Positions 899-55,809 of a stretch of 64,000 nt of DNA are shown piece by piece. Within the stretch, counting starts at the first letter, position 1. Each line of letters starts with the position of its first letter. The notes under the pieces were generated by a model. That model had not been told where the DNA came from, did no database searches, and worked only from the letters and a program-made list of their open reading frames with translations. Source of the stretch: Heterodontus francisci (Eukaryota); NCBI RefSeq assembly GCF_036365525.1, contig NC_090395.1, positions 65,621,326 through 65,685,325 of the forward strand, read 5' to 3'. A program made the position numbers and the translations under genes.

Positions 899-1543
899 GC
901 CCAGAATCGTATGCCCCCCCAAAAGAGCGGGATGGTGGTGGGGTGGGGGGGTTGTAAAATGTAGTGGGAGGCTCATGGGGCCCTTCCCGACCCACTCCCA
1001 CCTCTGCTGCCACTTTATGCAGGGCGGCGGCAGCAAAAAACGGCCCGCCTGCCCCAGGTCAATCAAAGGCTTTGAGTGGCTAGGTAACAGCCACTTAAGG
1101 GCCTCTGCCCACCGCCATGGAGATTTTACCCTTGGCTGGTGGGCGGACAAATCCGAGAAAAGCCACCTGTTAAAAGTAGGTGAATTTCCGACACCCTGTG
1201 CCCGATGGAGGGCTGCCCCTGATGCCCCAACCACCCCCAAGCCCAACACGCACCCTGTCCCCCAATCGACCACTCTTGCCTCACCAAGGCTTGACCAAAT
1301 GTCCCTGGCTATGCCCCAAAAACTTACCCGGTCTCCGGGGCTCCCTGACATCTTCCTTCTTCAGCTGGCACTGCTGGGACAGAGAGCTGGCGGCCCACTG
1401 ATTGGCCAGCAGCTCCATCAGACCAATTAAAGGCCTGGGGACTGCAAAATGTGGTCCAGATCCCCAGGCCAGGCGGAGGTGATTTCGCCACCGACTTTTC
1501 AGTCGGTGGACGGCTCCTGTCCTCTGAGGGTAAAGTTCTGGCC
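899..1543. mobile_element. Non-autonomous Harbinger-type element (MITE)
   Basis: Ends GCCCAGAAT.../...AAAGTTCTGGCC flanked by TAT/TAT; same family as 32733-33502 in the opposite orientation. Confidence 0.6.
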
Positions 1544-1546
1544 TAT

Positions 1547-3790
1547 CTAGTTGAGGGAGGCGACATAGAGGCAGGGGCTTATTGCTGGCTGCAAAGGGAG
1601 GCCATCAGGAGAGGCAGCACCGACTGCCAGGCAGGGTGGAGAAGGGAGGGCATTATCTGAGGATTGGGGGCAAAGGTACCAGCACTGCAGAGTGCCATAT
1701 GGGGGGGGGGAGGGGCAATGGGCAGGTGGTGACATGTGGGGGGAGAAGGGGAGGTGTTGGTAGTGAAGGCCTTAAAGTTAGGGAGTGGCCACCTATCATG
1801 GGCGTCATTCATCCAGACTTCGGGCACCTCATTGAAGAGGAGGTGGAGCAGAGCAGGAGTGAGGTCCAGGCACCAGCAGAGGCACTGCAACAACTTGTGA
1901 GCCCACAAGAGGGTCAGTAGCAGCCTCCAGGTGGTGGAGAAGGACATAGAGGGGAAAGCCAGCAGCCTCCTCTGCACAGAAGAAGTTACCCTCTAGAGGG
2001 AGTCTAGCGGTCGAGGCTCAACTACCTACAAATGTCCGAGAGGCCGTGCCAGCAAAGATACCACTTCAACAGGGAGGCTATCACTGGCCTATGATCTATG
2101 ATGCAGGATGAGCTGTGCCCCAGGGGACTTGGTGGAAATCCAGTGTTGGTGGCACTGAAGATCACCGAACTTCTACGCCGTTGGATCATTTCAGGGGTCC
2201 AATGGGGACATGTCTGGATTCTCAGAGACAGCTGTCATCGGTACATCAGTGAGGTCACCAGTGCTCTTTTCAGGCAGGAGGATGAGTATGTGCGCTTCTG
2301 CTCAGATCACAACTCTCAAGCTGAGAGGAGCATTGGGTTCAGGGCCATCACTGGATTGCCCCAGGTACAGGGTGTTAGCAACTGCATGCATTTGGCCAGC
2401 AAGGCTCCCAACACCAGCCAGCGGCCTTCATCAACAAGAATGGCTTCCACTCCCGCAATGTACAACTGGTCAGCGACCACCGTAAACGGATTCTGCAGGT
2501 CTGCAACTTCCCAGGAAGTCTTCATTTTGAGGCAGTCCCAGGGGCCAGAGCTTTTCCAGCCTTCTTCGTGCTTTCAGGGATTGATCCTTGGAGACACGGC
2601 TACCCACTGAGGACATGGCTACTGATACCTCTGAGGAACCTACGCACAGATGCAGAGGAAAGGTACAACACCTGCCACAGGACAATGCGAGTAGCCATCG
2701 AGCAGGCCATTGGTCTACTGAAGATGAGATTCAGATTTCTAGATTGGTCCGTTGGAGCCTTTCAGTGCGCTCCAACGAGGATCTCACATCGTGCTGGTCT
2801 GCTGTGCACTGCACAACCTGTCATTAAAGAGGGGAGAGAGGTTGAACAATAAGGATATCAAGGAACGTGCTGCCTCCTCGGGCGGTGAAGATGCGGAGTG
2901 GGAAGCTGGTCAAGCATTGCCAGATGGAGGACCCCAGGGATAAGAGGAGTGATGCATGAGATAAGTGCAAGGTAGGCTCGCGATGCCTTTATATATTCTC
3001 TTTTCCTATTAAATATGTTGACCTTATCTGGTCTGGCCTACATGTGATGCCAGATCCACAGCAATGTGGTTGAATCTTAAATGTCCTCTGAAATGGCCTA
3101 GTGAGCCATTCAGTTTCTCAAGGGCAAATAGGGATGGGCAATAAATGCTGGCCTAGCCAGCGATGCCGACATCCCATGAACGAATAAATAAAAAAAAGAT
3201 CCTTACTACCAGCTGTACGTTGACCAATATATACTTGTGTTTATGCAGCCCTGTTGTCACCTTCCTTCCTTTAGGAAGCATTCACTCAGCGCCCAAGTGT
3301 GCACCGCTCAGCTGGCAAGGCTCCAGACTTGACCCCTCACAGCATAATTCCTTGCCTCAAGCCCCTTGACTGAGGCAAGGTTGAAATGACACCCCAAAGG
3401 CCATAAAAAGAGAAAAAAATCTTTATTATTTCCAACAACAACCACTACCCTTTCTATTTACATTACTCATTTTCCCATGAAACCTCTGTGCTTCTAGGCG
3501 CTCTTCTTTATTCTGTTGTGAACACTCCTACGCGGTGCTCCGCCTGCACTGTCAGCTGAATTGGAGGCAGGCTGTTGACCTTGCTGCCCCTTGGCTCGGG
3601 ATGACTTTGACGATCATCCTGGAGGGCCCCGGCATGTTGAGGGCCTCTTGCACAGAATCAATGCCACCCTCTGTCGTCGGGGATGGAGGAGGATCTGGCG
3701 TCACTGGCAGAGGGGCATAGAAACAGCTGCCTGCACAAGAAGCACCCTGAGATTAGCTCCCAGCTGCAGGGGGCAGCCAAGCTTTCGTGT
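1547..3790 (+). mobile_element. Degenerate Harbinger transposon (HARBI1-like DDE transposase relic), duplication unit 1
   Basis: Frameshifted motifs [60 protein letters not shown]; paralogous to 9835-15540 and 23335-24990. Confidence 0.85.
3020..3198 (+). mobile_element. tRNA-headed SINE, 3' part (unit-1-specific insertion)
   Basis: GGCCTACATGTGA...AAGGGCAAATAGGGATGGGCAATAAATGCTGG...A-rich tail; absent from the paralogous site near 13290. Confidence 0.7.
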
Positions 3791-4540
3791 AAAGTCAATA
3801 AGCTGATGTGGAAGGAGGCCTGCGATGAAGCCACAGCCATGGAAATGGCAGGAAGAAATAGTTGCTGATTGCAAGGAAGTTACAGTCCTGAGCTGGCAGC
3901 GGAGGTCCACCGGATTTCAGCAGGAACCAGGTAGCCAAGTTCACAGACTCAGAGTCAGAAATTTAGATGCTATCATTGCCATGGTAGCCACCAACCATCC
4001 AAATGCTCCCACTTTCAGTCAAAGTGCTATGACTGTGGGAAAGTCGTTCATATCCAGACGACATGCAGGAATTGAGGAAACGGTAATGCTCCAGGTCGCA
4101 GTAATCCACCTTGTCGAGGTCATAGTAGACCTAAAGCTAAAATAGGCTCCTGGAAGTCCTCAAATGTACATATGGTGGATATGGAAACAGAAGTTGATGT
4201 TATCGAGCAGGAAGATCAAGAATTGTACTCAATCAGAGAGCAAGATAAACAGCACATGGAAGTTGAGAGAGAAAGGGCTGAAGATAGAATTCTAGCACCC
4301 TCAGTAAAAATGAAAATCGGAGATTTACAACTTACGTTTGTTGTTGATACAGCCACAGCAGTGTCTGTTAACTTGGAAGGAGAGTATAAGAAGTCCCTAA
4401 GTCATATTCCCTTATGGAAAACTAGTGCGAAACTGACTAGTTATTCCAATAACAGCTTTCCAGTATTAGGTGAAGTGAGTATTAAGGTGGAATACAATGA
4501 TGCATCCTATTATTTGCCATTGGTAACAGCAGGAGATGAG
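3790..4540 (+). mobile_element. Gypsy gag-protease fragment
   Basis: Two zinc knuckles CYHCHGSHQPSKC..CYDCGKVVHIQTTC (3968-4066) followed by an aspartic-protease-like FVVDTATAVS..LTSYSNNSFPVLG (ORF 4172-4576). Confidence 0.8.
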
Positions 4541-4810
4541 GGAAGCAATTCTCTGACTAGAGAGATGACTCAGTAGGAAAGGGTTCAGATCTCTGGCCCA
4601 TTGGGACCAGGTCTGAAAGAGGAGCAGCCTGTAGAGTATGGGAGGACTTTATCTGAACACTTATTAAACCAATGGCCTTGCTGGGTGAAGAACTCGTACT
4701 GTGGAAAAGTTTACACTAAAACTGCAGGAGTTTTTAAAAAAGGTGAAGAGGCAGAGAGAAGAACAGAAAGAGGAAATGATATAGGATAGATTAAAAGGAG
4801 AAACAATGAG
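4540..4810 (+). mobile_element. Old CR1 ORF1 (esterase) 3' fragment at the tandem-duplication junction
   Basis: GGGTTCAGATCTCTGGCCCATTGGGACCAG resembles GFRFLGHWDRFW of CR1 ORF1; copies at 17450-17715 (inverted) and 25400-25650. Confidence 0.65.
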
Positions 4811-5170
4811 GTAAAAATGCTTCACTGGCAAATTCATTTTTGCAAATAGCTGCATAAATATCAACAGGCTGTTGGTTTAAGAGAGAAGCACTTTAAAGGC
4901 TCACTAATTGAGCCAGGAAACAGGGAGTTTTATTCGGATGTTTCTTTCCTCATTGTTAATAGTAGGTTGATTATGTTGTTAAAGATGGACAGATGAAGGA
5001 TATTGTTTAATTAAGGATTTGGAGCAGATATAAAGTGAGCCTGCTGGAACATGGGGAGCAAGGCAGGAAGCAGAAATATATAATGCTGCATTCTGTGAAT
5101 AAATCAACTATCAAGAAAATGGTCTGTGTCTAGCTTCATTCTTCACCATTTGGCTTGGATCCATGTAACA
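4810..5170 (+). mobile_element. LTR 3' remnant
   Basis: AATAAA at ~5098 and terminal ...CCATGTAACA, after which the sequence resumes homology to the post-C2 intron of gene C (~58005). Confidence 0.45.
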
Positions 5171-5772
5171 CTCATAGCTAAAAGCTCTCATCTCACGTGT
5201 CATTTCAGTTCAATTCTACCACACTCTATCCTGACATCCACCCTAAAGTAGGCCACAATTCCCTTGGTCACTGACCTGAAACATTAACTCTGTTTCTCTC
5301 TCCGCCGATGCTGCCAGACCTGCTTAGTATTGCCAGCACTTTCTGTTTTTATTTCCCTTCCTAAAAGCACTGCTGGTGTACCTACACCCCAAGGACTGCA
5401 GCGGTTCAAGAAGGCAGCTCAACACCAGGGCAATTAGGGATGGGCAATAAATACTGGTATAGCCAGTGATGCCCACATCCCGTGAACGAATAATTAAACA
5501 AAAACAAATGACAGTTGACTGTTGCATTTCACAATTCCATCTGCTGGAAATAGGTATATTAGTTTATGAAGAAGGAGTCAATCAAATTCAATTTTAATTT
5601 TATGGGATTACAGGAGTTTCTGCAATGTTTATGCATGTTTTGGGGATTGTTGAGTGAATTTGCCCAGTTTCAGTTTCTCAGAGTGACTGAAGGAACTTAC
5701 CCGGTGACCAGTTTGGATAGACATTAATTAAAAAATTCAGTTACCATACTGTTTGTTTGAAGTATCTCTTAC

Positions 5773-6096
5773 CAATGCTGCTGATTTGTATCACATAACT
5801 GCAGTTTTTCTCTGATCTGTTGGAGACTGACACGTGAACCATTTCACTGGCTTTTTCTCCCTGATTATTTGAGGCTGTGCAGTAATATTGATGATGTTGC
5901 TGTTTGAAGGATTGACAATGTAGATCCAGTTTATTGATGTCAGAGATCTTTGAATCTTCAGACGGGGTCTTTTCATACCATGTGTACTGAATGGGGAGGG
6001 ATCCCTGGACAGACTCACAGGAGATGGAAACTGAGCCCCCAGAACATGAGCGATCTGGTCGTGATAAAAATCTGACTACGGGAACAGACACGGATT
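5773..6096 (-). CDS. Ig C2-type (FcR-like) exon, cassette B of the CD300/pIgR-like receptor gene
   Basis: cag|AA TCC GTG...ATT G|gtaaga; 324 nt, phase 1-1, open; VSVPV..GGSVSISCESVQGSLPIQYTWY..YYCTASN..SEMVHVSV. Confidence 0.9.
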
Positions 6097-6199
6097 CTGT
6101 GGGAAAGAAACAAACATTCAGATACTGACTGTACGTTTAAAAATCAAATACTCTCCAGTAGAATTTGGGTCAGCTCATTAAAATCAAGAAGTAGAATGA

Positions 6200-8830: not shown

Positions 8831-9312
8831 TATTTCTTGGCATCTTATGTATCTTGTTGATCATGTGTGTCACCTATCAGATCAAGGAGCCTATGAAACA
8901 TGTTAAGCTCAGTGGATTGATTCTATTTTTAATATTTTCTCGGAAGTAATACCACGAGTAAACACTTACTTCTCACTTCTTTGGTTAATTCTGGCTGCTA
9001 ATTTTAGTGACATTTCATACAGTGCAGAGACAGGAAAATGTGGTAAGAATCTCATGTGATATCTACCACAATACCCTGTAGTTAAAGGAATTGTTAATCC
9101 AATAACACTTGAAACTCTTGGTCAGAAAGCTGGACAGGCCACGAATTGGGTGTATGTAACACGAGCCAGATTTCCCGACCTCTGTCCATTACCTGACAGA
9201 CTCTGCACTACTGCAGAGCCTCGGGATATCGGGGCTGCCATGTTTCTCCCAGATAAAACATTGATCAGACATTTCAGTGGAGAGTAATAAAGAAAATCCC
9301 TGGGAAATATAC

Positions 9313-9626
9313 CGTAAGATATTTGTAGCTCGACAGCAAACAGCAGATCGAGGCCAGGTGTTCAATACCACAGTTGTGCCATCCTGCATCTTCTGAGCGA
9401 AGATCCTTCATTATAACAACAAATATTCCTTGTCTCTTTTTATCTGTGATTGATATTCTTTCACGTTGCCAATTTGACTTTACTAAAACTGAGCACTGGC
9501 GAGTCCAGCCATGACACCAATATTTCACAGATGACTGGTACTGCTGTGCCCCATAGCGATAATCTATTGTGATCGCTCTTCCCACAACACCTGTTACTTT
9601 CTTTTCAGCACACAATACATCTGAAA
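9313..9626 (-). pseudogene. CD300/pIgR-like V exon, cassette B (1-bp deletion, B-strand Cys->Tyr)
   Basis: cag|TT TCA GAT...TAC G|gtatat; 314 nt against 315 in the paralog; VGRAITIDYRY..KYWCHGWTRQCSVLV..RISITD..MKDLRSEDAGWHNCGIE, then frameshift. Confidence 0.85.
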
Positions 9627-11261
9627 CTGAGGGGACAGAAACTGAATAGGCTGAATACAAACAAATACATTTTGATAATCGTTGCCACTGTGCACAGAGG
9701 AATCTCTCCACTATATCTATAATACAGTTGAATTCCTTCTTGTTTGTGATGAAAGAAAACATTAATATAGTGCCTTATCACTGTCTCAGGATGTGACAAA
9801 GCACTTCACAGTCAATGACTAAGTTTTGAAGTATGGCAGAATTTTATGCCGACTTCGGGTTCAGGAACAGTGGTATGGGAGGGAGGGGCGCATTAAATAA
9901 GGACGGGCTAAGTTATTACTGCGCTGGGAATCAGTGGGAGTCTAGCGGGAGAGGCTCAATTGCCTTCAGATGTCTGAGAGGCAAAGACTCCACTTCAACA
10001 GGGAGGCTGTCACTGACCTATGAGCTATGATGCAGGACGAGCTGTGCCCCAGCGGACCTGGTGGAAATCCGATGCTAGTGGCACCGAAGGCCACCGTGGC
10101 ACTGACCCTGTACACATCTGGATCATTTCAGGGATCCACTGGGGGCATGTCTGGATTCTCACAGTCAGTGGTCAACGGCACATCAAGGAGGTCATCAAGG
10201 AGGATGAGTTTGTGCACTTTTGCTCAGATCCTAACTCTCAAGCTGAGACATCCATTGAGTTTAGGGCTATCACTGGATTCCCCAGGTACGGGACGTCTGC
10301 ACACAGATGGCCATCAAGGCGCTGGAACACCAGCCAGAGCCTTCATCGACAAGACAGTCTTCCACTCCCTCAAAGTACAACTGGTCTGCGAAAACCGTAA
10401 ATGGATCCTGCAGGTCTGCGCACGCTTCCTGGGAAGTTGCCATGATGCCTACATTTTGAGGCTTTCCCAGGGGCCAGAGCTTTTCTGCCCTCCTTCGTGC
10501 CTTCAGGGATAGATCCTTAGAGACCACGGCTACCCACTGAGGACATGGCTACTAACACTTGTGAGCAACACACACACACACATGCAGAGGAAAGGTACTA
10601 CACCTGCCATGGGACAACACGAGTCACCATCAAGCAGGCCATTGGTCTATTGAAGATGAGATTCAGATCCCTAGATTGGTCTGTTGGACCCCTTCAGTAT
10701 GCTTCAGCGAGGGTCTCACGTATCGTGGTGGTCTGCTTTGCACTGTGTTACAAGAGGTTTTATTTTTGTCCAAAATCTTAGAATTCTATGTGTTTTAAAA
10801 AAACTGAAAAAACATTTTCAGTGGACATGGACACCTGCAAATAGCTGAAATTTTTGGATGTTGATTTTGTATACAAGAATAGGAAGACCAAGCCGTTTCA
10901 AGGAAGCTAGCCAGTGGTTTTTGACCTCCACGGAGCAACACCTTGAATTACAGGGGCGACACTGTGCCTGGCCATGGGATCAGCTCAGGAAGGTTTACTT
11001 TTTTCCGAATCCTTTTAAAAACCAGTGAGTTGGACAAAGAGCAGGCATTTGAAATTCTGACCCATCTGGAGATCAAAATGGAAGACCTAGAAAAGGAAAC
11101 TGTAAAGGAAACTTGCATCCCTTGAAAAGAAACGCTGTATTTGAAAGGTGGCAGATTCCTATTGCCTCCTGTCTCTGAAGAATTCTTGCATCCAGTGTGG
11201 TTCCTGTTTCCTCCTGTGTTTGGGAAATCCTAGAACCTGAAGAAAGCTTCTACTATAACAA

Positions 11262-11750
11262 TCAATGCAAAATACTGCAGATGTTGGAAATCTGAAATAA
11301 AAACAAGAAATGCTGGAAATACGCAGCAGGCCTGGCAGCATCTGTGGAGAGAGAAGCAGAGTTAACGTTTCAGGTCAGTGACCCTTCTTCAGAACTAGCA
11401 GATATTAGAAATGTAAAAGATTTTAAGCAAGTAAAGCGGTGGGGGGGGGGGGGGTGCTATAGATAACAAAAGAGGTGTTGATAGGACAAGGTCACAGAGA
11501 ATAACTGACCAGAAGATCGTGGAACAAAGGCAAATGGTATGTTAGTGGTGTGGTGAAAGACAAAGCATTAGTACAGAGAGGGTGTGAATTGATTGTAAAG
11601 CACAAAGCACTCCAAGCACAAACATTAATTTTTTTTTTTAAAAACAGCAACAGTGGGTAGGCACAGTAGAAACAAACTAATAAACCAAAAAAACTAAACT
11701 AAAATAACCAAATAAAAATGAAAAAAGAAAAAATAACTAAACATTCTTAA
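11262..11750 (-). mobile_element. Penelope-type terminal fragment with hammerhead motif (11359-11396)
   Basis: Minus strand reads AGTT-CTGAAGA-AGGGTCACTGACCT-GAAACGTT-AACT followed by the common CAGATGCTGCCAG...CAGCATCTG body. Confidence 0.6.
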
Positions 11751-11769
11751 TAAATAATAAATAAGAATA

Positions 11770-12664
11770 AAGCTTCTACTGCTGTACTGCTGCTGTGAGG
11801 CCGAAGCAGACCTGTTGCTACACCCCTGCTGAAAGACCTATGTGAGGCCTGCTGTAGGCGAATTGCCTTGAACACCACCCATCCGGCATCTAGGGTGGTG
11901 GCGGGGTGACCTGGAAAATTCGTCCGGGAGTGACCCGCCACGACCTCCAACACCAAGAAGGCCCCGTCGCATTTTACCAGCAGCAACAAGGTCTTGGTAC
12001 AGCCCACCCCGCCCTCCCCCCTCACCGTTGCTCGGTGGCAGGGCCTTGATTTAATATTAAAATCAATGAAAAAACACGCACATCAATTTACCTTGACCCG
12101 GCTGCCATCCCACGCCAATATTACAGCCGCTGGCCGCAACTCGCACACCTTCGGAACTCCGATCAGAGTTCCGAAGCATGAGACTGTTGGGGACGGGGGA
12201 GGCATGAAAATTTCAGGGTGGGAGGTGGGGGGAGCGGGGAAAACCGCTCCGATTGGTTGCAGGGATGGTGGGAAGGGGTTTTGGGTCAAAGGAAATAAAG
12301 TTTGGGGGGGAAAGGTCGTGAGTGAAGACTCACTTTTTTAGGGGGATAGGACAAAAAAATCAACGGATTATTCATTGGGGGTGTGGGAAAGGGAATTGAA
12401 AATTTGAATAAATGTATGTCTGCATTTTTAAGCATTCTGTCACTTTAAAACTTATAATGAGACCAATGGGCCTGTAGCCCTTTAAAAATGGCGGTGGACG
12501 CTGTGCCGTGGTGCCAGACGCTGTTGCTGAGGCTGGAACGGCTGCCCCCTCTACATCATCAGGGGCAAAATATCACAGGGGCTCAGCGACAGCGCATCTG
12601 CATCTGAAGGCCACCGACTTCAAAGTTCACCGTTGCGATGTGCGGCGCTAATCAAATTCAGCCC
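11770..12664. mobile_element. GC-rich non-autonomous DNA element (Harbinger-like end)
   Basis: Ends AAATTCAGCCC like the other Harbinger-type TIRs here; left end unclear. Confidence 0.4.
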
Positions 12665-13599
12665 TTTGAGTGGCATCCAACTATTCGACTCTGGGACACC
12701 TCACCCAACTGAAAAGTTTCCTACCAGAATGTGCCAAACTGATTTATTTTATTATTCTTTCTATTCATAAGAAACAGCTGTAAGCCAAAGCCCTTATATC
12801 CCCGGCTAACTATTTAATTTTTTAATGCATGTGTGTGTGCATGAGGACTAGGGAAATAAGTAGCTTTCATATATATAGATTTATCTCATTTGTGACTAAG
12901 ACTTATTTTTTTCTACTAACTAGTTGTTGTTGTTGTTTATAGAAACCTGATTGGTATGCTTTATTCTGAGGGAGAAATAGAATCTAATTGGCTATTCTTC
13001 AGTAAGTGGGTAAAATCTATTGATATGCTGTGACCTGTGGAGAAGTGGGACTGAATTAACAGTGCATTTCTCCTGCCATGGTTGTAACAACTGCACAACC
13101 AGTCACTACAGAGTGGGGCGATGTTGTACAATAAGGATAGCAAGGAGCATGCTGCCTCCTCGGACGGTGAGGATGTGGAGTGGGAAGCTGGTCAAGCATT
13201 GCCAGATGAAGGACCCCAGTGGTAAGAGGAGAGATGCATAAGATATATGCAAGGGAGGCTCGCGATGCCCTTATACATTCTCCTTTCCTTTGATCTTTAC
13301 TACCAGCTCTGTTGTTGCCTTCCTTCCTTTAGGAAGCATTCACTCAGTGCCCAGGTGTGCACCGCTCAGCATGCAAGCCTCCAGACTTGACCACTCAAAG
13401 CATTATTCCTCACCTCAAGCCCCTTGACTGAGGTAGGGTTGATATGTAACCGCAAAGGCCATAAATGAGAGCAAGGAGATCTTGTACGATGGAAAATAAC
13501 CTTTATTATCCCCGATAACCAATGCTACCCTTTCTATTTACTCATTCGCCCATGAAATTCCTATACTTCTAGGTGCTCTTCTTTATTCTGTTGTGAACA

Positions 13600-15290
13600 C
13601 TCCTACGCAGTGCTCCCCCTGCGCTGTCAGCTGAATTAGAGGCAGGCTATTGACCTTGCTGCCCTTTGGCTAGGGGTGACTTTGTCACTCATCCTGGAGG
13701 GCCCCAGCATGTTGAGGGCCTCTTGCATAGAAACCGTACCACCCTCTGTCGTCAGGGATGAAGGAGGATCTGGTGTCACTGGCAGAGGGGAATAGAAACT
13801 TCTGCCTGTACAAGAAACACCCTGAGAGAAGCCCCAGCTGCAGGAGGCAGCCACTCCTCCCCCCTTGCATGGCACTTGTGCCTCCCTGCTAACCTGAGAT
13901 GTAAGAGGACCTGGTGGTGGCTCCAGGTTCCCTTATCCCCTCTTGCCTTGTCATTGCTGCCTTCAGTTCTTGGTCAAATCGAAGCTATGCAGGTCTGCAC
14001 GAATGTCCTGCAGACAGTGAGTGCTCTGCTGGAGCTCCAGGAGAGCTGCCAATCTGTCAATGGAGGATGCCAGTTTTGCACCAATCAGTGAGAATGCAGC
14101 AGTCAAGGCCTGGATGGGCCACTGCATCATCTGCACTTGAGTACACATTGCCTCTGGCATCTCTGCCAGATGTTGCCTGAACTCTTGCTGCAGCTGCAGC
14201 ATTTCCCGTGATGCTGCCGACACCAGAGTCACGTGATGAGCCTGGGGCGAGTGCATATCCATGGACATGAGGGTATCTGTCCCGATGGAGGGTGTGGGAG
14301 TATGAGGTGACGATTCAACTTTCGATGCTCCGTTTTCCCCCTCAGAGGTGGCAGCTTCACCCACAATTGCGGAGGCTCTTTGTAGATGCTCTGCATGACC
14401 TGCATGAAGAGAACAGAGAAATTGAAGGGTCAAGGGCCTCGCCTTCCGACATGGAAAACACCCCTACATTGGAGACCCTTATAGGCACCAGATGCCTTAT
14501 GAACAGCATGGTTCCATCGCCGATAAGGCACCCTTGTGCTCCATGGTGACCTTACTCACTGTCTTGTGAGGGTGCCCCTATTTCTACATCACAACGCTCC
14601 ATCCATCCCGAGGCCATGTCAGCTCCGTGGCCTCTTCCTCCATCGGGTTCAGAACATGCCACCGGTCTTGGAGCACTCTCTGTGATTTTGTGCTCTCCTG
14701 CAGAGACAAAGATGAATGATGTTGGTCTCCCAGCCAAGACAAGCCCAAGACATATGCTGGTGGTAGTCCAACAGGTAATGATGGGGGCACACAGATCTGT
14801 CCTGCATGTGGCCCCTTTTCAGCAGCTTTGTGAGGGTCTCCAGTGACAAAAAGCTGCCTTTCAGCCCCATTTCGCCATGCCTCAAGCAGCTTGTCTGTAA
14901 GTCCTGGCCCTTTGCCCATATCTGGGTGGGCATGGCTGCTGCACCCATCACACTCTCCTCCTCTGAAAAATACAAGGCCCGAGAGCTGAAGGCGTTAAGA
15001 AGTGCTCACTTTCTCTGCTCAGATGACGTCATTGAGCCGCTTGTGGCACTGAGCCCATGTCCTTGGTGTGACCCCACAGCTGCTGACTTCCTCTGCTATT
15101 GGTAGCCAGTCTTGCTTGGTCAGGTGTCCAGCTCTCCTCCTCCAGTCCCCAAGGAAGTGCATCTCCTCACTGTCGGCCTGTAAGAGAATTTGGAAGGAGG
15201 TATCACTAAAGCGTGGGTCCACCCGGGGTTTTCCTTCTGCCCTTGTTCTGCTGCCTTTCTCCCCTGAAGAAATTCTTAAACTTGACAATG
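13600..15290 (-). pseudogene. Harbinger Myb/SANT DNA-binding gene relic (about 3 exons)
   Basis: PRFSDTSFQILL..TKQDWLPIAEEVSSCGVTPRTWAQCHKRLNDV; second exon ~14556-14699 (RAQNHRECSKTGG..PMEEEA); coiled-coil-like third exon (ORF 13963-14433). Confidence 0.75.
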
Positions 15291-15564
15291 AAACATCACA
15301 TGCAGGGCTGGCAGCCCTTTAAATATGGCGCCACCACCTGCCATGGCATCAGTTGATGCTGGCATCTCCGTCTCCACCTTGCCACCGTCCACTGCATTGG
15401 ATGGCCCCTGTGCCTCATTCCTGTTAATTTGCCGGCCATCGTTCTATTGTGTGCAGCCAGCCGCTCATGACCCTGAAAGAAGCCACACCTGCTTCCGTTA
15501 TCATTGTCGGGACTTGCGGCTTTAACGTAAAATCTGGCCCATAGTCTCTATTGCGATTGTTCTC

Positions 15565-16285
15565 ACTGTAGCTCAGTGTTAGCACTCTCACCTCTGAGTC
15601 AGAAAGCTTCCCCACATCACATACAATCTATGCTGACATTCCAGTGCAGTATTAAGGGAAAGCTGCATTGTTCAAGGTGCCGTTTTTCAGATGAGATGTT
15701 AAGCTGTGGCCCTGTCTGCCCTCTGAGGTGGATATAAAGGTTACCATGGCTCTATTTCGAAGAAGAGAAGAGGAATTCTCTGCAGTAACTAAGCCAACAC
15801 TTAGCCTCCTTCATGGCCTCTGTGGCACATGAAGGGTTCTTCCAGCAGCAATGGCTGCCCCCGTGGCTACGTTGGCACCAATGGAGGGTGGAAACCGCCG
15901 ATTCCCAGGGTCTGCCTTCCTGGCCCCAGCACCGTACATAAACAAACTTACCTTGTCTTCGAGCATGGTTCAGCATAGAGGCACCGTCTCCTTCTTCCTG
16001 CAGCTTCAGAAACCTCCGGCTGGTGCTGCTGAGCTGCCGGCCATCTGATTGGGCTAGCAATTTTGGGAGGTGACTGATGTCCTCAAATGAACCACGTGGG
16101 GTCGGGTGACAATTTTGTCCTGGCGAAGAGATTTCTTAGCTCTTGAAAAAATCCAGCCCCCCCAAAAAATTATCTGGCCATTGACATATTTTGTTTATGG
16201 GACTCTGATGTGTGAAAATTGGCTGCTGCGTTTTCTACATAACAACAATGTCAACAAATCAAATAAGTAATTGGGGTGAAAGACT
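15565..16285 (+). mobile_element. Deu-domain SINE (SacSINE1/AmnSINE-like), interrupted
   Basis: tRNA-like head AGCTCAGTG..AGCACTCTCACCTCTGAGTCAGAA, core GGTGCCG..CAGATGAGATGTTAA, and AAATTGGCTGCTGCG; interrupted at ~15800-16160. Confidence 0.7.
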
Positions 16286-16323
16286 GTAGTGTCTGGTATT
16301 AAACTGGCTGAGTGTATTGTGAT

Positions 16324-17132
16324 AGGCTGCGTTTGCTGACAATGCTACCACTAGGTGGCACTGCAGTGGTACATGCGCAAGTGCAGCCTCTGCCACTAAA
16401 ACGTCACAGTCTGCGATGTCAGACAGCTGCCAGGACTAAAAATGGCGCTGCTCAAATAATCACACAAAGGCAACCTGAACACATGGCAGCACACAATGGC
16501 CGGAGGGAGATAGCGAGCAGGCCAGGGTGGATGGGGAGGGTGGGAGATAGCGAACGGGCCGAGGGGGGTTGGGAGGGAGATAGCGAGAGTGCCAGGGGGA
16601 TGGAGGGAGATGGCAAGTGGGCCGGGGTGGAAACGAGCGTGCTGAGGGGCGGGGGTATCGAACGGGCCGCGGAGGAAGAGAGCGCACCCATCACCACAAA
16701 GGTCTTGATCGAAGAGATTATTGACAATGCAGCCAACAGCTGACGTCATCAGAATGCACTAACTGCGCACATGCGCAGATTGGATCTTACTCTCTGATGA
16801 CGGATGCGCTCTCCTCTTCCCCGGCCCGCTCGCTATCTCCCCCCTCCCACACCCCCCCCCCCCACACACTCGCAATCTCCCTCCTCCCCCCCCCACTCGC
16901 ACTCGCTATCTCCCTCCTCCCCACCCCACCCACCCCCACTCGCTATCTCCCTCCGGCCATTGTGCGCTGCCATGTGTTCAGGTTGCCTTTGTGTGATTAT
17001 TTGAGCAGCGCCATTTTTAGTCCTGGCAGCTGTCTGACATCGCAGACTGTGACGTTTTAGTGGCAGAGGCTGCACTTGCGCATGTACTACTGCAGTGTCA
17101 TCTAATGGTAGTGTTGTCAGCAAATGCAGCCT
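16324..17132. mobile_element. Foldback MITE with long TIRs
   Basis: 16324-16517 is a near-perfect inverted repeat of 16938-17132 (AGGCTGCGTTTGCTGACAATGCTACC...); internal GGGAGATAGCGAG repeats. Confidence 0.85.
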
Positions 17133-18098
17133 TTCTCGATAGTTGGTTTATCCACAGAATGCAGCATTATATATTTCTGCCTCCTGCCTTCCTTCCCATG
17201 TCCCAGCAGGCTCACTTTATATTTGCTCCAAGTCTTTAATTAAAAAATATCCCTCATCTGTCCATTAGCAACATAATTAACCTACTATTAACAATGAGGA
17301 GAGAAACATCCGAATAGAACTTCCTGTTTCCTGGCTCTGGCACACAGTGAGCCTTTAAAGTACTTCTTTATTAAACCAACAGCCTGTTGATATTTATGCA
17401 GCCATTTGTATAAAGGAATTTGCCAGTGAAGCACTTTTACCTCATTGTTTCTCCCTTTAATCTATCCTATATAATTTCCCCTTTCTGTTCTTCTCTCTGC
17501 CTCTTCACCTTTTTTTAAAACTCCTGCAGTTTTAGTGTAAACTTTTCCACAGTACGAGTTCTTCACCCAGCAAGGCCATTGGTTTAATAAGTGTTCAGAT
17601 AAAGTCCTCCCATACTCTACAGGCTGCTCCTCTTTCAGAACTGGTCCCAATGGGCCAGAGATCTGAACCCTTTCCTACTGAGTCATCTCTCTAGTCAGAG
17701 AATTGCATCCCTTATCTTACTATTCTTATACTGACTCCCATGTCACACTGGGAATAATCCTGTGTGTTCGAGGTCCTGCTCATTGAGCTATCTCCAAGTT
17801 CCTGAATCTTCCCTTGCTGAACCTCTTTCCTCTTCCTTTCTCTGCTCTTGGCTGCATGAATCACGTTCACCTTCACTCTCCAAATCCTGCTGCAGTAGAT
17901 GTTGCAGCCAATAAAGTTGAGAGGACGGACATTGATTTAGCTGTTACCATGGTGCTGTATGAATTAGAGAAAAATATCAAATTCAAGTTGTTATTGCCGT
18001 TAGAAAGAAATACTTGCATTTATATAGCACCTTTCACAATCTCAAAATGTCACAATGCTTTTTACCCCCAATTGTTTGAATTGTTGGCATTGTTGTAA
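17133..18098 (-). other. Locally inverted ~1-kb segment (LTR remnant + CR1 ORF1 + SINE tail)
   Basis: Reverse complement of 4540-5118 and of 25020-25650, whereas the surrounding paralogous blocks are in direct orientation. Confidence 0.85.
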
Positions 18099-18204
18099 AC
18101 CATGAGGTCGTAACTGGGAGCAGCCATGTTGCAACTTTTTATTTACACCTCCCAACAGAGAGGCAATATAGCAGTGCACAATGTTTAACTGTTACATATA
18201 TCAC

Positions 18205-18605
18205 AATCAAAGTGATTATTGACAACGCAGCCGGCAGCTAATGTCATCAGACTGCACCAATCTGCGCACATACGCAGATTGGATCCTACTCTCTGCGCAT
18301 GCGCTGCGTTCCACAGTGCCAGGACTGGTTTGCGCATACGCAGATAATGCGGGGACAGCATGGGGAGTTCGCAGCCGAAGACCTTGGTGGTGACGGGTGC
18401 ACTGTCCTCCTCCCGCGCCCGCTCGCTACTCTCCCCCGGCCCGCTCGTTCCCCCCACCCCCCGGCCTGCTCGCTATCTCCCTCCACCCCCCCCCCCCCCA
18501 GGCGCGCTTGCTATCTCCCTCCCTCCTCCACACCCCAGCCCGCTCGCATTTGCACATGTGCCACTGCAGTGCCACCTACTGGTAGCATTGTCAGCAAACG
18601 CAGCC
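18205..18605. mobile_element. Right half of a second copy of the foldback MITE family
   Basis: 18210-18295 matches 16715-16795 directly; ends GGTAGCATTGTCAGCAAACGCAGCC (TIR). Confidence 0.8.
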
Positions 18606-19315
18606 ATCAAGAGAAGGATCTGTGTCTAGCTTTATTCTTCACCATTTGGCTTGGATCCATGTAACACTCAGAGCTAAAAGTTCTCATCTCAGGTGTCATT
18701 TCAGTTCAGTTCTACAACACTCAATCCTGACATCCACCCTAAACTAGGCCACAATTCCTTTGGTCACAGACCTGAAACGTTAACTCTGTTTCTCTCCCCC
18801 CAGACCCACGAAGTATTTCCAGCACTTTCCATTTTTACTTCCCTTCAGAACAGCACTGTGGGTGTACCTACACCCCAAGTATTGCAGCGGCTCAAGAAGG
18901 CAGCTCACCACCACCTTCTCAAGGGCAATTAGGGATGAGCAATAAATGCTGGCCTAGCCAGTGACACCCACATCGCATGAACAAATAAAAAAAAGACAGT
19001 CGGATGTTGCATTTCACAATTCCATCTGCTGAAAATAGGCATTTTGGTTTATGAAGAAGCAGTCAATCAAATTCAATTTTAATTTCTTGGGAATACTGGA
19101 GTTTATGCAATGTTTACACGTGTTTTGGGGATATTTTATGATCCCATCCATTTTGCATGAAAAATGCAAACCAATGGCCTTGTTCATAACTGTTGAGTGA
19201 ATTTGGCCAGTTGCAGTTTCTCAGAGTGACTGAAACAACTTAACCAGTGATCGGTTTGGATAGACATTAATTAAAAAATTCAGTTACCATAGCGTTTGTT
19301 TAAAGTATCACTTAC

Positions 19316-19639
19316 CAATGCTGCTGATTTGTGTCACATAACTGCAGTTCTTTCCTGATCTGTTGGAGACTGACACGTGAACCATTTCACTGGATTTTTT
19401 CCCCTGATTATCTGAGGCTGTGCAGTAATATTGATGATGTTGCTGTTTGAAGGATTGACAATGTAGATCCAGTTTATTGGTGTCAGAGATCTTTAAATCT
19501 TCAGACGGGGTCTTTTCATACCATGTGTACTGAATGGGGAGGGATCCCTGGACAGACTCACAGGAGATGGACACTGAGCCCCCAAAACGGGAGACATATG
19601 GTGGTGATAAAAATCTAAGTACAGGAACAGACATAAATT
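19316..19639 (-). CDS. Ig C2-type (FcR-like) exon, cassette A
   Basis: cag|AA TTT ATG...ATT G|gtaagt; 324 nt, phase 1-1, open; the C-W-C Ig motif is intact. Confidence 0.9.
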
Positions 19640-19729
19640 CTGTGGAAAAGAAACAAACATTTGGATACTGACTGAACATCTAAAAATCAAATACTGTCTC
19701 ATCAAGAGAAAATCAAGAAGTAGAATGAG

Positions 19730-22350: not shown

Positions 22351-22810
22351 TTATGCATCTTGTTGATCATGTGTGTCACCTGTCAGATCAAGGAGCCTAT
22401 GAAACATGTTAAGCTCAGTGGATCGATTCTATTTTTAATATTTTCTAGGAAGTTATACCACTAGTAAACACTTGCTTCTCACATCTTTGGTTGATTCTGG
22501 CTGTTAATTTTAGTGACATTTCATACAGTGCAGAGACAAGAAAATGTGGTAAGAATCTCATGTGATATCTACCACAATACCCTGTAGTTAAAGGAATTGT
22601 TAATCCCATAATAGTTGAAACTCTTGGTCAGAAAGTTGGGCAATTGGGTGTGTGTAACACGAGCCAGATTTCCCGACCTCTGCCCATTACCTGACAGACT
22701 CTGCATTGCTGCGGAGCCTCAGGATATCGGAGCTGTCATGTTTCTCCCAGATAAAACATTGATCAGACATTTCAGTAGAGAGTAATAAAGAAAATCACTG
22801 AAAAATGTAC

Positions 22811-23125
22811 CGTACGATATTTGTAGCTCTACAACAAACAATTAATCGAGGCCAGGATGTTAAATACCACAGCTGTACCGTCCTGCATCTTCTGAGCAAA
22901 GATCCTTCATTGTAACAATAAATATTCTTTGCGTCTTGTTATCTGTGATTGACATTCTTTCACATTGCCAATTTGATTTGACTAAAACTGAACACTCAGG
23001 AGTCCAGCCATGACACCAATATTTCACGAATGACTTGTACTGTTGTGCCTCATAGTGACAATCTATTGTGATCGCTCTTCCCACAATTCCTATTACTTTA
23101 TTTTCTGCCCACAATGCACCCAAAA
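22811..23125 (-). pseudogene. CD300/pIgR-like V exon, cassette A (two in-frame TAA)
   Basis: cag|TT TTG GGT...TAC G|gtacat; 315 nt; VGRAITIDCHY..KYWCHGWTPECSVLV..RMSITDNK..MKDLCSEDAGRYSCGI*HPGLD*LFVVELQISY; stops at 22860-22862 and 22842-22844. Confidence 0.88.
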
Positions 23126-23334
23126 CTGGGGAGACAGAAATTGAACAGGCTGAATACAAACAAATACATTTTGATAACGGTTATCACTGTGCACAGAGGA
23201 ATCTCGCCATGATATCTACTAATACAGGTGAAGTCTTTCTTGTTTACGATGAAAGAAAACATTAATACAGTGTCTTATCACGGTAATGGGTTGTGAAAAG
23301 CACTTCACAGTCAATGACTAAGTTTTGAAGTATA

Positions 23335-24990
23335 GGGCAGAAGTTTATGTGGACTGCGGGGATGGGAATGGAGGCACAGTGGGGGCATTAAATAAGGATG
23401 GGAGATGTCGGACCGGAAGTCCGACATTGTGATTTCCTATCCTGATTTTATCGATGGCAGCAAACATGGAGGGCAGAGAGCAGATATTGACATGACGGGC
23501 AGGCAATTAATGTAATAAAGAAGCCTATTGACACATATTTTGTTCTCAGTTTTAAATTTTGTTAGCGGTTCTCAGGAATCCGGGGACTTCAGGGCCTCAC
23601 CTTTTTGAGGGAGGTGACAAGGAGGCAGCTGCTCATTGCTGGCTGCAAAGGCAGGCCATCAGGAGAAGCAGCATTGACATGCCAGGCAGGGTGGAGAAGG
23701 GAGGGCATCGGGCATCATCTGAGAAGTGGGGACAAAGTTTCCAGCACTGTGGGGGGCATATTGGGGAAGGGGAGAGGGGGGGCGGCCAATGGGCAGGTGT
23801 CACCTCATCACAAGTGACAATGGGGGATGGGGTGAGGTGTTGACAGTGAAGGTCTTAAGCTTAGAGAGAGGCCACCTATCATAGCCCTCATTCATCCAGG
23901 CTTCTGGAAGCCATTGAAGAGGAGGTGGAGCAGAGCGAGGGGAGTTCCAGGCACCGGCAGCGGCACTGCAACAACTTGTGAGCCCACAGGAGGGTCAGTA
24001 GCAGCTTCCAGTTGGTGGAGAATGGTGCAGAGGGGAAAGCCACGCAGAAGAAGGTATCCTCCGGAAGGAGTCTTCCAGTCGAGGCTGAACTACCTATTGA
24101 TGTCTGAGGGGCAGTGCCAGCAAAGACTCTGCTTCAACAAGGAGGCTGTCACTGACCTTTGAGCTATAATGCGGGACGAGCTGTGCCCCAGGAGACTTGG
24201 TGGAAATCCACAGCCAGTGGCAGTGAAGGTCACCATGGCACTAAACTTCTACACATCTGGATCATTCCATGGATCCACTAGGGAAATGTTTGGATTCTCA
24301 CAGTCAGCAGTTATCGGTACATCAAGGAGGTCACCAATGCTCTTTTCAGGCAAGAGGATGAGTATGTGCGCTTCTGTTCAGATCCCAACTCTCAGGCTGA
24401 GAGGTCCATTGGGTTCAGAACCATTGCTGGATTGGCCCAGGTGAATGGTGTCATGAACTGCATGCATATGGCCATTAAAGCTTTGGAACACCAGCCAGCA
24501 GCCTTCATCAACAAGAAGGACTTCCACTCCCTCAATGTACAACCAGGTCTGCGACCACCATAAACAGATTCTGCAGGTCTGTGCACGCTTCCTGGGAAGT
24601 TGCCTCGATGTCTCCGTGTCTGAGGCAGTTCCAGGTGCCAGAACTTTTCCGGCCTCCTTTGTGTCTTCGGGGATGGATCCTTGGAGACCATGGGGACCCA
24701 CTGAGGACATGGCTACTGACACCTATGAGGAACCCACGCACAGGTGCAGAGGAAAGGTACAACATCTGCCTCAGGCAATGCGAGCGACCATCAAGCAGGC
24801 CGTTGGTCTACTAAAGATGAGATTCAGATGCCTGGATTGGTCTGGTGGAGCCCGTCAGTATGCTGCGGCGAGGGTCGTACATATCCTGGTGGTCTGCTGT
24901 GCACGGCACAGCCTGTGACTACAGAGGGGGGAGATTTTGAACAACAAGGATATCAAGGATATGCCTCCTCGGGATTGTAAGGATGCGGAA
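23335..24990 (+). mobile_element. Harbinger left TIR and transposase relic in intron 1
   Basis: GGGCAGAAGTTTA TIR; [46 protein letters not shown]. Confidence 0.85.
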
Positions 24991-25149
24991 TGAGAGAATT
25001 GACTGTTGTGTTTCCTACATTACAACAATGTCAACAATTCAAATAAGTAATTGGGAGTAAAGAGCATTGAGATTGAGATAGTGAAAGGCACTATATGAAT
25101 TCAATTCTTTCTTTCTTTCTAACAGCAATAACAACTTGAATTTGATATG

Positions 25150-26200
25150 TTTCTCCAATTCATACGGCACCATGGTAACAGCTAACTCGATGTCCATCCT
25201 CTCAGCTTTATTAGCGGCAGCATCTACTGCAGCAGGATTTGTAGAGTGAAGGTGAACATGGTTCATGCAGCCAAGAACATAGAAAGGAAAAGGATTGCGG
25301 TCCAGCAAGGGAAGATTCAGGAACTTGGAGATCGATCAATGAGTAGGACCTCGAGGGTAGTAAAGACAGGACTGTCGTCAGTATGCAAATAGTAAGATAA
25401 GGGAAGTAATTCTCTGTTTAGAGAGATGTTGCAGAAGGAAAGGTTTCAGATTCCTGGCACACTGGGGCCAGTTCTGGAAGAGGAGCAGCCTATAGAGGAT
25501 GGGAGGACTTTACTTGAACAGTTATTAGACCAATAGCCTTGCTGGGAGAGGAAACGTGCTGTGGGGACAGTTTATACTAAAATGGCAGGAGGTTAGAAAA
25601 AAGGTGAAGAGGCAGAGAGAAAAGTAGAAAGTGGAAAGGATATAGGAAAGATTAAGGAGGGGAACAAGAAGATAAAAGAGACCAGATGAGAAAGAGGAAA
25701 GATTGAAAAGAGTAAGATTGCCAAAGTGACTGAGGCACACATCAGTCGAATGTACAGAAGTATATAAAATATTCTGTGTAAAATTGGTAATTTGGGGAAG
25801 TTGGATGGAAATAGAACTAACAAAGTTTTGGTTTAGAGTAGGGGAAAACTGATAGTTTAACATTGCTGGTTACAAAATAGATTAATCATAAATAAAGGAG
25901 AGGTGCAATATTGATTAAAAATTTAATTGCAGCATAATATTGCAAGGTTAATATGTGGCAGGAGTAATTGGTTAATGTTAAAGAATGAGAAGAAAACAGT
26001 TACTTATTGAAAGAGTAACATAGACCAACCATCTACTAGTGAGGAACAGTGTCACTGACAGAGCCTCAAAAAACAATTTCATCAGCTGTACTTTAAATAA
26101 CAGAAACAATTGCAAACTCGAGACATGTTCTGTTTGAGGGATTATTACCACGGCAATCTTCATTATATAATTGGACATCAGTCTACATAAAAAAGATTAC
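25150..26200 (+). mobile_element. Highly decayed CR1 (ORF1 esterase into endonuclease)
   Basis: Aligns to LKGEGEQ..VHIGTNDIGKKR..RELG..SRTSKVV..WCRKEGFRFLGHW of the intact CR1 ORF1. Confidence 0.65.
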
Positions 26201-26518
26201 GTTTTACAGATTTAACTGGGTTACTTTTGCATTTTGATTCCAATACTTGTATAACGCTTTAAGAAGTTAAATGGGTCCTTTATTTTCCATACCCAGTTAA
26301 TAATGCAGTTCAGTTTATATTAGTAAATATCCCTGTGGTGCAACAATATAGTCTATAAGAGTTACAAGACTTCACACAAAATATTATGAATTTGTTTTTA
26401 CTGTATATTTTTTGCCTTTACATGTCTCCAAGTATTTAAACATCTCCACTGTATAAACCGTACACTAGACTGAAACAAACACCGATTATCTTCATATCCA
26501 ACGCTAGCTGTCACTTAC

Positions 26519-26555
26519 CGGACAGGGAACAAATGAGAAAAATCAGAATCCACAT
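26519..26555 (-). CDS. Leader (signal peptide) exon of the receptor gene A/B
   Basis: ATG TGG ATT CTG ATT TTT CTC ATT TGT TCC CTG TCC G|gtaagt = MWILIFLICSLS, phase 1; joins V-A to give MWILIFLICSLSVLGALWAE. Confidence 0.85.
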
Positions 26556-33502: not shown

Positions 33503-33778
33503 CTGGACTCAGAAACTCAATGAAATTGATTACATTTGCTGATGACACCAAACTGGGAACAGCAGTGGAATTGGAGGTAAAAACTCAGAAGTTACAGGAA
33601 GAGTTGGATAAAATTAGCTTCTGGTCAGTTCATGGCAGATGCTATTCAATGAAAATGAAATGCACAGTAAGATGGAACAATGAGCAACACATATACCACA
33701 TTAATGGTTTTCCGAACGAATAACGTTAGCATACAATGCTATTTCGGATTCCTGTGGAGTATCAAGCGATGGAATCTC

Positions 33779-35790: not shown

Positions 35791-35794
35791 AGAT

Positions 35795-37306: not shown

Positions 37307-37429
37307 CTGAAAAATTACAATATTACTGTTGACAAAGCTATATCGAGAATGCTTATTATGTTTAAAATGTCCAAACTGAGCATGGGTTGCAATTTGCACT
37401 GCCTCACATTGATCTATATTCATTGGAAG

Positions 37430-55772: not shown

Positions 55773-55809
<37 letters not shown>

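What the first reader, a model, noticed from the sequence alone, without database searches (positions are those of the whole stretch)
899..26555. Intragenic tandem duplication of a [V-C2] cassette behind a single leader exon
Seen: the block Harbinger - CR1 ORF1 piece - C2 exon - CR1 - V exon repeats at ~900-9830 and ~9830-23335. The third Harbinger/CR1 copy (23335-25650) continues instead to the only leader exon found (26519-26555). I found no leader, TM or tail exon between the cassettes. The junction fuses intron-1 CR1 sequence (~4810 and ~17450) to sequence from the intron after C2 (homologous to gene C ~58005). All V and C2 exons are phase 1-1. Inference: one gene, L-V-C2-V-C2-..., grown by unequal crossing-over; the Harbinger copy at 1547-3790 predicts a third V exon left of the window. 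This shows a mechanism for modular domain-number variation.
Basis: partly seen in the sequence, partly recalled or inferred. Interest (0 to 1): 0.7.

Follow-up and report, generated by a model that had tools for sequence, protein, structure and literature searches.

The report
Broken shark immune receptor, duplicated module
A shark immune-receptor gene of the known MDIR family carries an internally repeated two-domain module, as several relatives do, but this copy has broken V domains and is most likely a pseudogene that preserves the DNA scar of the duplication.

Summary
The repeat is real: two [V–C2] cassettes (5110–9907 and 18606–23402; 89.5% over 4589 columns) lie behind one leader exon, with no leader, stalk, TM or tail homolog between them, and an intron-3/intron-1 junction occurs twice. 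The gene belongs to the elasmobranch MDIR (CD300/pIgR-like) family. The first V has two in-frame stops; the second has a 1-nt frameshift (so it is not phase 1-1) and has lost its first Cys. Probable RNA runs show the C2→V splice, but in contigs that differ from this locus. The left Harbinger shares neither flank nor left arm with the other two, so it does not predict a third V; the duplicated junction does suggest a third unit once existed. The first join is non-homologous, so unequal crossing-over explains only the second step, and deletion-fusion of two neighbouring genes fits the first step almost as well. Verdict: a pseudogene of a known family with a readable duplication scar. Internal V domains seem to have arisen several times in elasmobranchs.

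The parts
26519..26555 (-). Leader exon (12 codons + 1 nt, phase-1 donor); the only one in the window
   Evidence: (leader HMM from 34 homologs: single hit at 26555-26523)
25020..25678 (.). Intron-1 segment ending in a CR1-ORF1-like piece; leader-side (uncut) copy
   Evidence: (73-78% matches of 62-130 bp to 42957-43090 in the ORF1 of the full-length LINE)
23335..24995 (.). Harbinger-like copy 3 (internally deleted), same insertion site as copy 2
22811..23125 (-). V exon b (first V; CD300/pIgR type), 315 nt, two in-frame stops at 22862-22860 and 22844-22842
   Evidence: (V-set 1.4e-06)
19316..19639 (-). C2-type Ig exon b, 324 nt, open, phase 1-1
17132..18098 (.). Junction copy J2 (intron-3 side 17132-17433 joined to intron-1 CR1-like piece 17434-18098), inverted relative to J1 and the leader-side copy
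   Evidence: spanned by contigs of X1 and X5
16325..18605 (.). Two parts of a foldback element with terminal inverted repeats (16325-17131 and ~18185-18605) flanking the inversion; a 9-bp target duplication is split by it
9834..16159 (.). Harbinger-like copy 2 (DDE_Tnp_4 and Myb/SANT remnants, both just under Pfam cut-offs)
9313..9626 (-). V exon a (internal V), 314 nt: 1-nt deletion near 9359, first Cys codon reads Tyr (9560), YxC motif reads HNC
   Evidence: the Tyr codon lies in zero-difference contigs of X5 and X6
5773..6096 (-). C2-type Ig exon a, 324 nt, open, phase 1-1
4534..5118 (.). Junction copy J1 (CR1-like piece 4534-4816 joined to intron-3 side); implies a further unit once followed
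899..3779 (.). Harbinger-like copy 1: different left arm, flanked on both sides by LTR-retroelement-like fragments; probably a separate insertion or a hybrid
33713..58721 (-). Neighbouring paralog 'gene C', 3' part: C2 58721-58410, stalk ~54624-54518, TM ~49611-49523, small exon ~37304-37254 (weak), tail ~34042-33713; reference for the exons missing between the cassettes

Best explanation
A decayed (pseudogene) member of the elasmobranch MDIR family whose ancestor had the layout L-(V-C2)n-stalk-TM-tail. Step 1 (inferred): a non-homologous join fused the intron after C2 to a point inside intron 1, so that a second V-C2 unit came under the same leader; phase-1 symmetric exons made this splice in frame. 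Step 2 (inferred): misaligned crossing-over between the two units copied the junction, giving at least three units at that time, with patchy later exchange. Step 3 (shown in the sequence): both V exons in view were inactivated, and transposons inserted and inverted part of the middle intron. In intact relatives the same layout gives a longer ectodomain with several CD300-type V domains, each on a C2 spacer, over an activating or inhibitory tail (from homolog sequences; ligand and function untested).
For: Shown: cassette identity and shared Harbinger site; junction present twice, copies 97.5% alike and 80% to the uncut copy; no leader/TM/tail between units; stops and frameshift; Cys kept at 209 of 210 and Tyr at 233 of 235 motif matches in 135 homologs, both lost in Va; at 7 of the 14 codons where X5 contigs differ from Va the contig has Vb's residue, so these changes are private to Va; C2-to-V joint 19316 to 9626 with GT..AG ends at depth 227 (X5) and 53 (X6), the X5 contig carrying 5 listed other letters including the Cys codon, while zero-difference contigs cross the Va acceptor unspliced at depth 11.5 and 5.8; V and C2 exons 51-66% identical to MDIR2, 3 and 5 domains. 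Two-step order: V plus adjacent intron 1 is 432/499 identical between cassettes against 3475/3858 downstream (Fisher p 0.019).
Against: The Vb stops and the Va frameshift lie in no listed contig piece (tables were cut), so they rest on the assembly alone and could be one haplotype's null allele. Both C2 exons are open with good splice sites, and L-C2b-C2a is in frame. The X6 joint contig shows only one listed (synonymous) difference and could be an allele of this locus. The identity step is patchy: distal intron 2 is also only 1166/1342, and the boundary was chosen after seeing the data. The third unit and the 3' end lie outside the window and no genome is held. Runs X5/X6 are RNA by guess only.
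Confidence: 0.72

Rival explanations
1. Deletion-fusion: two neighbouring tandem paralogs were joined by a deletion that removed the stalk, TM and tail of the first and the promoter and leader of the second; later crossing-over or conversion copied the junction. Same end product, different first step.
For: It gives the identical intron-3/intron-1 join. Intron-1 pieces of the two units are only 80-82% alike (CR1-like piece, Harbinger 2 vs 3), the same range as intron 3 against gene C (80-84%). The locus is a tandem cluster (gene C 7 kb upstream of L). Hybrid genes by deletion are described for KIR (PMC2816608, abstract).
Against: Nothing in the window excludes it. Both units share one Harbinger insertion, so they would have to be sister paralogs; a direct intragenic duplication needs one event fewer. 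This rival overlaps with the best explanation in everything except step 1.
Confidence: 0.35
2. The gene still works without V domains: both V exons are skipped and L-C2-C2(-...)-TM is made, a C2-only receptor.
For: L-C2b-C2a is open and in phase; both C2 exons are intact while both V exons carry lesions; 5 C2-only and 1 C2-C2 models among 135 homologs, e.g. P0092 L-C2-stalk-TM.
Against: An unconstrained C2 exon stays open with probability 0.17-0.50 at this divergence; dN/dS between C2 copies is 0.53-0.80 on 90-107 codons, which shows no clear constraint; V splice sites are intact, so skipping is not forced; the V-less homologs are gene models that may also be dead genes.
Confidence: 0.1
3. One reading: a functional L-V-C2-V-C2-V-C2 gene; the lesions are assembly errors or a rare null allele.
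For: Stops and frameshift not read-verified (tables cut); splice sites all canonical.
Against: At least five separate lesions in two exons; two are substitutions to TAA; the Cys loss is in run contigs with zero differences; X1 contigs elsewhere in the stretch match the window with 0-2 differences.
Confidence: 0.07
4. Separate genes: each V-C2 unit is the remnant of its own gene.
For: Va begins with the signal-peptide tail typical of first V exons, and units diverge at paralog level on the intron-1 side.
Against: No leader, stalk, TM or tail homolog between units; the same join twice; internal V domains of MDIR3 and MDIR5 keep the same signal-peptide tail.
Confidence: 0.04

Closest known systems
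Modular domain immune-type receptors (MDIR2, MDIR3, MDIR5) of clearnose skate, Rostroraja eglanteria (UniRef entries; Cannon et al. 2006, PMID 16738934, seen only as a reference-list entry)
   Same: Same V and C2 domain types (51-66% identity), same leader and signal-peptide tail; MDIR5 is L-V-C2-V-C2-TM, MDIR3 L-V-V-C2-V-C2-TM-tail, MDIR2 L-V-C2-TM-tail.
   Different: This copy has dead V exons; its internal V groups with a Heterodontus first V (92/84, unstarred) and not with the batoid internal-V clade that holds MDIR3/5 (97/91, starred); probably three or more units.
RefSeq 'polymeric immunoglobulin receptor-like' / 'CMRF35-like' models of sharks and rays; nearest single protein P0040 (Heterodontus francisci, V 79%, C2 82%)
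   Same: 36 of 52 proteins (13 of 16 species) have C2 directly followed by V, up to six units.
   Different: Those are gene models, some clearly fusing neighbouring genes (leader or TM inside P0001, P0004); here the join is seen in DNA.
pIgR and CD300 (CMRF35-like) V domains
   Same: Best PDB sequence hits of Vb: pIgR (E 2.6e-27, multi-domain sum) and CD300f (1.6e-11).
   Different: pIgR is a run of V domains without C2 spacers; CD300 has one V (recalled). RefSeq's pIgR-like name is a resemblance only.
Xenopus FcR-like (XFL) and KIR families
   Same: Domain architecture diversified by inter- and intragenic recombination (PMC2413239, passages); hybrid genes and CNV at transposon sites (PMC2816608, abstract).
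   Different: Other domain subtypes; there the unit is mostly single C2 exons or whole genes, here a two-exon V-C2 block.

Membership tests
MDIR | V domain of CD300/TREM/pIgR type | tested here: met
   Pfam V-set; PDB hits pIgR, CD300f, CD300a, TLT-1, NKp44; 52-61% to MDIR2/3/5 V domains
MDIR | Second Ig domain of the MDIR C2/I type | tested here: met
   51-66% to MDIR2/3/5 second-type domains, E 1e-29 to 6e-43
MDIR | Modular, variable V/C2 combinations behind one leader | tested here: met
   L-V-C2-V-C2 order in DNA, same as MDIR5
MDIR | Type I TM with activating or inhibitory tail | not testable with these tools
   3' end lies left of the window, no genome held; neighbour gene C has stalk, TM and tyrosine-motif tail
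MDIR | Multigene cluster | tested here: met
   Gene C in the window; further paralog-like contigs in runs
MDIR | Intact, expressed receptor | tested here: not met
   Stop after 100 aa in Vb; frameshift in Va. Filed as a pseudogene of the family, not a working member
MDIR | Phylogenetic grouping against CD300/pIgR/PIGRL outgroups | tested here: inconclusive
   Trees held chondrichthyan homologs only; no mammalian or teleost outgroup
pIgR | Ectodomain of tandem V domains only (recalled) | tested here: not met
   V alternates with C2-type exons
Unequal crossing-over (NAHR) product | Homologous sequence on both donor sides of the join | tested here: inconclusive
   First join: 4817-4932 matches neither intron 1 nor gene C, donor side unknown. 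Second step: units 89.5% alike give the substrate; junction duplicated
PIF/Harbinger transposon | DDE_Tnp_4 transposase plus Myb/SANT protein, short TIRs | tested here: inconclusive
   Both Pfam families hit in copy 2 (E 5.4e-05, 3.4e-04) but under their cut-offs; TIR-like ends at 9834 and 16159

The most novel reading that the evidence does not exclude
MDIR ectodomains behave as an accordion: internal V-C2 units were re-created from first-V exons independently in several elasmobranch lineages (batoids, galeomorph sharks, this lineage), unit number still varies between haplotypes, and this window holds the breakpoint record of one such origin; possibly the V-dead copy lives on as a C2-only receptor by exon skipping.
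Probability: 0.25. Interest if true: 0.55.

Novelty: new member of a known kind. Interest (0 to 1): 0.27.

Why it matters
The family and its V-C2-V-C2 layout are known, and intragenic recombination is the accepted source of such variation in other paired receptors. What this window adds is modest: a junction that can be dated and typed by PCR, showing how an MDIR module count can grow, and a warning that multi-unit 'pIgR-like' gene models in sharks mix true multi-unit genes, fused neighbours and pseudogenes. If unit number proves polymorphic, it would give sharks a germline source of innate-receptor diversity comparable to KIR hybrids.

Tried and rejected
No genome is held, so the left flank could not be read. 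Run search: no RNA holder listed on record; X5, X6, X8 are RNA by guess. In one search X5/X6 depth is near zero at 23216-24383 and 25552-26135 while zero-difference intron contigs lie in 9514-17819; uncovered parts prove nothing and DNA carry-over is possible, so no internal promoter is claimed. X1 contig depth is 6.8-8.3 for two pieces in 15709-17817 against 10.8-15 for six pieces in 20065-26442; this could hint at a haplotype-specific unit but contig depth is no copy number. X7 (another organism) gave only short pieces and said nothing on the junction. No L-Vb joint among the 15 joints shown (1815 not shown). Idea that Va's 'VSDVL' start, shared with internal V domains of P0004, marks an old internal lineage: rejected, the trees place them apart. 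Harbinger 1 as marker of a third V: rejected on flanks and left arm; against my reading, a 96-bp piece is closer to copy 2 (82/96) than to copy 3 (68/93), but the 800-bp core is not (84.3 vs 83.3%). dN/dS (0.53-0.80) uninformative. The 118-row tree finished only as a quick tree. Three look-ups of earlier scan findings returned nothing. Cannon 2006 is not held; seven paper searches listed no paper on the genomic origin of MDIR modules, but most subscription papers are outside the library. No structure was predicted: the fold is not in question.
Full report
What was checked. The window was compared with itself, the exons were read on both strands, homologous proteins were collected and mapped back, four sequencing runs were laid on 9200-26700, and V-domain trees were built. 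No genome is held, so nothing left of position 1 could be seen. All three protein searches returned cartilaginous-fish proteins at the top; the nearest single protein is a Heterodontus francisci model, 79% in V and 82% in C2, so the window is most likely from a shark.

The duplication is real. 5110-9907 aligns with 18606-23402, 89.5% over 4589 ungapped columns. On the minus strand the order is L 26555-26519, Vb 23125-22811, C2b 19639-19316, Va 9626-9313, C2a 6096-5773, with canonical splice sites. The 3' part of a neighbouring paralog, gene C, supplies the exons to look for: stalk ~54624, TM ~49600, tail ~34040. None has a homolog in 1-26400. tblastn of 135 homologs gives, besides V, C2 and L, only scattered weak hits from 1-5 proteins each; HMMs from 15 and 84 tail regions score nothing there above 5.6 bits; a leader HMM from 34 proteins hits only 26555-26523; DNA alignments of gene C's exons and L do not beat shuffles. 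A very diverged short exon could still be missed.

The junction. A CR1-ORF1-like piece (label from 73-78% matches to the ORF1 of the full-length LINE at 42858-43892; the name CR1 is my reading of the translation) runs on at 25677 in intron 1 but is cut at 4816 and at 17434, where both copies continue into the same other sequence. The two cut copies are 276/283 identical to each other and 226/283 and 227/283 to the uncut one. The far side is intron-after-C2 sequence: solid to 5521/58087, weak and collinear at 5171-5258/58005-58077 and 4933-4953/57989-58009. The last 116 bp match nothing in 26600-58000, so the exact donor point is unknown and no homology across the first join was found. In the middle copy 17132-18098 is inverted, between two parts of a foldback element; a 9-bp target duplication is split by the inversion. 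Contigs of runs X1 and X5 span this junction with 2 and 1 other letters; these runs may be the source sample.

Vb has two in-frame TAA codons (22862-22860, 22844-22842). Va is 314 nt because of a 1-nt deletion near 9359, so it is not phase 1-1; its first Cys reads Tyr and its YxC motif reads HNC, where homologs have Cys at 209 of 210 and Tyr at 233 of 235 motif matches. Splice paths: L-Vb stops after 100 aa; any path through Va stops at 6078; only V-skipping paths are open. The Tyr codon is inside zero-difference contigs of X5 (9514-9878) and X6 (9514-10182). The stops and the frameshift are in no listed piece; the tables were cut (40 of 106 letter rows, 12 of 23 gap rows, 15 of 1830 joints shown), so these lesions rest on the assembly.

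Expression. Runs X5 and X6 (RNA by guess, same sample as X1) hold a joint 19316 to 9626 with GT..AG ends, exactly C2 donor to V acceptor, at depth 227 and 53. The X5 contig of that depth has 5 listed other letters and encodes Cys at the position Va has lost; over both X5 contigs, 7 of 14 differing codons agree with Vb against Va. The X6 contig shows one listed synonymous difference, shared with the X5 contig. X6 also holds a V-to-C2 joint (9313/19633, depth 508). So C2-to-V splicing occurs in this species, most likely from intact paralogs, while contigs identical to this locus cross the Va acceptor unspliced at depth 11.5 and 5.8. Contigs cannot give strand or level, and DNA carry-over is possible.

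The third V. Harbinger copies 2 and 3 share their insertion site. Copy 1 does not: its left arm (899-1540) aligns to a different element at 33503-32840 (score 367.5, shuffled max 38.5) and not to copy 3's left arm (28 vs 30); its left flank is an integrase-like frame cut at ~898 and its right flank a gag/protease-like fragment (labels recalled from motifs, Pfam found no family for 4076-4573). Its core is 84.3% to copy 2 and 83.3% to copy 3; one 96-bp piece is closer to copy 2. It is a separate insertion or a hybrid and predicts nothing about a V. The junction copy at 4534-5118 is the real argument that a further unit once followed C2a; whether it survives is unknown.

Mechanism. Shown: two units, one leader, junction twice, lesions. 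Inferred: first a non-homologous join of intron 3 to intron 1, by intragenic duplication or by deletion between sister paralogs; the window cannot separate these, since the intron-1 pieces are as diverged (80-82%) as intron 3 is from gene C (80-84%). Then unequal crossing-over between units copied the junction. That model predicts an older V/intron-1 side and a younger downstream side: 432/499 against 3475/3858 (p 0.019), with 1460/1573 next to V but only 1166/1342 in distal intron 2. The boundary was chosen after seeing the data and the pattern is patchy, which suggests additional conversion. Symmetric phase-1 exons make any such unit splice in frame (established exon-phase logic).

Comparison with what is known. 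Searching with P0040 returned skate MDIR2, MDIR3 and MDIR5. Their layouts are L-V-C2, L-V-V-C2-V-C2 and L-V-C2-V-C2, at 51-66% identity to the window's domains. That these entries come from cDNA clones is my recall; the paper (Cannon et al. 2006, PMID 16738934) is not held and was seen only as a reference entry. PMC3031540 (passages) describes MDIRs as multigenic activating/inhibitory receptors of skate and zebrafish resembling CD300, TREM and pIgR. 36 of 52 proteins (13 of 16 species) and 57 of 135 overall have C2 directly followed by V; most are gene models and some fuse neighbours. PMC2413239 (passages) attributes domain shuffling in FcR-like families to intragenic recombination; PMC2816608 (abstract and outline) describes hybrid KIR genes at transposon sites; PMC4016189 (passages) found no true pIgR in sharks. 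Seven searches listed no paper on how MDIR modules multiply in the genome; the library lacks most subscription papers. No supplements were read.

One step further. In a 45-row V tree (distinct V domains among the first five domains of 21 proteins that I chose from 135, plus Va and Vb; 89 columns) the label internal/first changes 9 times, at least 6 forced by starred branches, and one clade of internal V domains is rejected (AU p 0.008; the set was chosen after seeing the quick tree). A batoid internal clade with MDIR3/5 is starred (97/91); a galeomorph internal clade (86/85) and the group Va, Vb, Heterodontus first V (92/84) are not. Several near-identical first/internal pairs may be fused models or homogenised copies. 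The cautious reading is that internal V domains arose more than once and that this window records one origin.

Verdict. Observation partly confirmed; interpretation partly supported. A pseudogene of a known family, in a known layout, with a clear duplication scar. Interest 0.27. The boldest reading left open, recurrent and still polymorphic module number or a C2-only survivor, has probability about 0.25.

Noticed in passing
window 16325-18605: A ~1-kb inversion (17132-18098) lies between two parts of a foldback element with ~70-bp terminal inverted repeats; the 9-bp site seen once at 5110-5118 is present on both outer sides, one copy inverted, as expected if the element inserted first and one inversion breakpoint fell inside it.
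   Followed up: partly
window 33713-34042 (minus): Gene C's tail exon has an in-frame TGA at 33781-33779, after two tyrosine motifs (ITYAVV, VIYSNI; ITIM-like by recalled consensus) and before the third; gene C may be truncated or decaying too.
   Followed up: partly
window 39904-43892 (minus) and 43986-45097: A LINE with two long open frames (344 and 992 codons stop to stop; CR1-like by my reading) sits in a gene C intron, with a 161-bp tandem repeat (6.9 copies, 99% matches) at its 5' end; looks young.
   Followed up: no
window 34636-36707: Two ~900-bp copies of a LINE 3' part form a 92% inverted repeat about 270 bp apart.
   Followed up: no
window 4949-5175 vs 58005-58009: A ~220-bp insertion in both cassettes' intron 3, absent from gene C, is bounded by a 5-bp direct repeat; origin not identified.
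   Followed up: partly
window 58410-58721 (minus): Gene C's C2 exon is 12 nt shorter (312 nt) than C2a and C2b, in frame; its V and leader lie right of the window.
   Followed up: no
homologs P0004, P0017, P0020, P0026, P0033, P0034, P0037: Internal V domains often drift in the signal-peptide tail that first V domains keep (e.g. SGALWA in first V against SDVLMA, SGVVPA, PNVLWA), as Va does; fits release from a cleavage-site role.
   Followed up: partly
window 15709-17817 vs 20065-26442 (run X1): Contig depth is about half in two pieces between the cassettes compared with six pieces further right; a weak hint of a haplotype-specific stretch, not a copy number.
   Followed up: no
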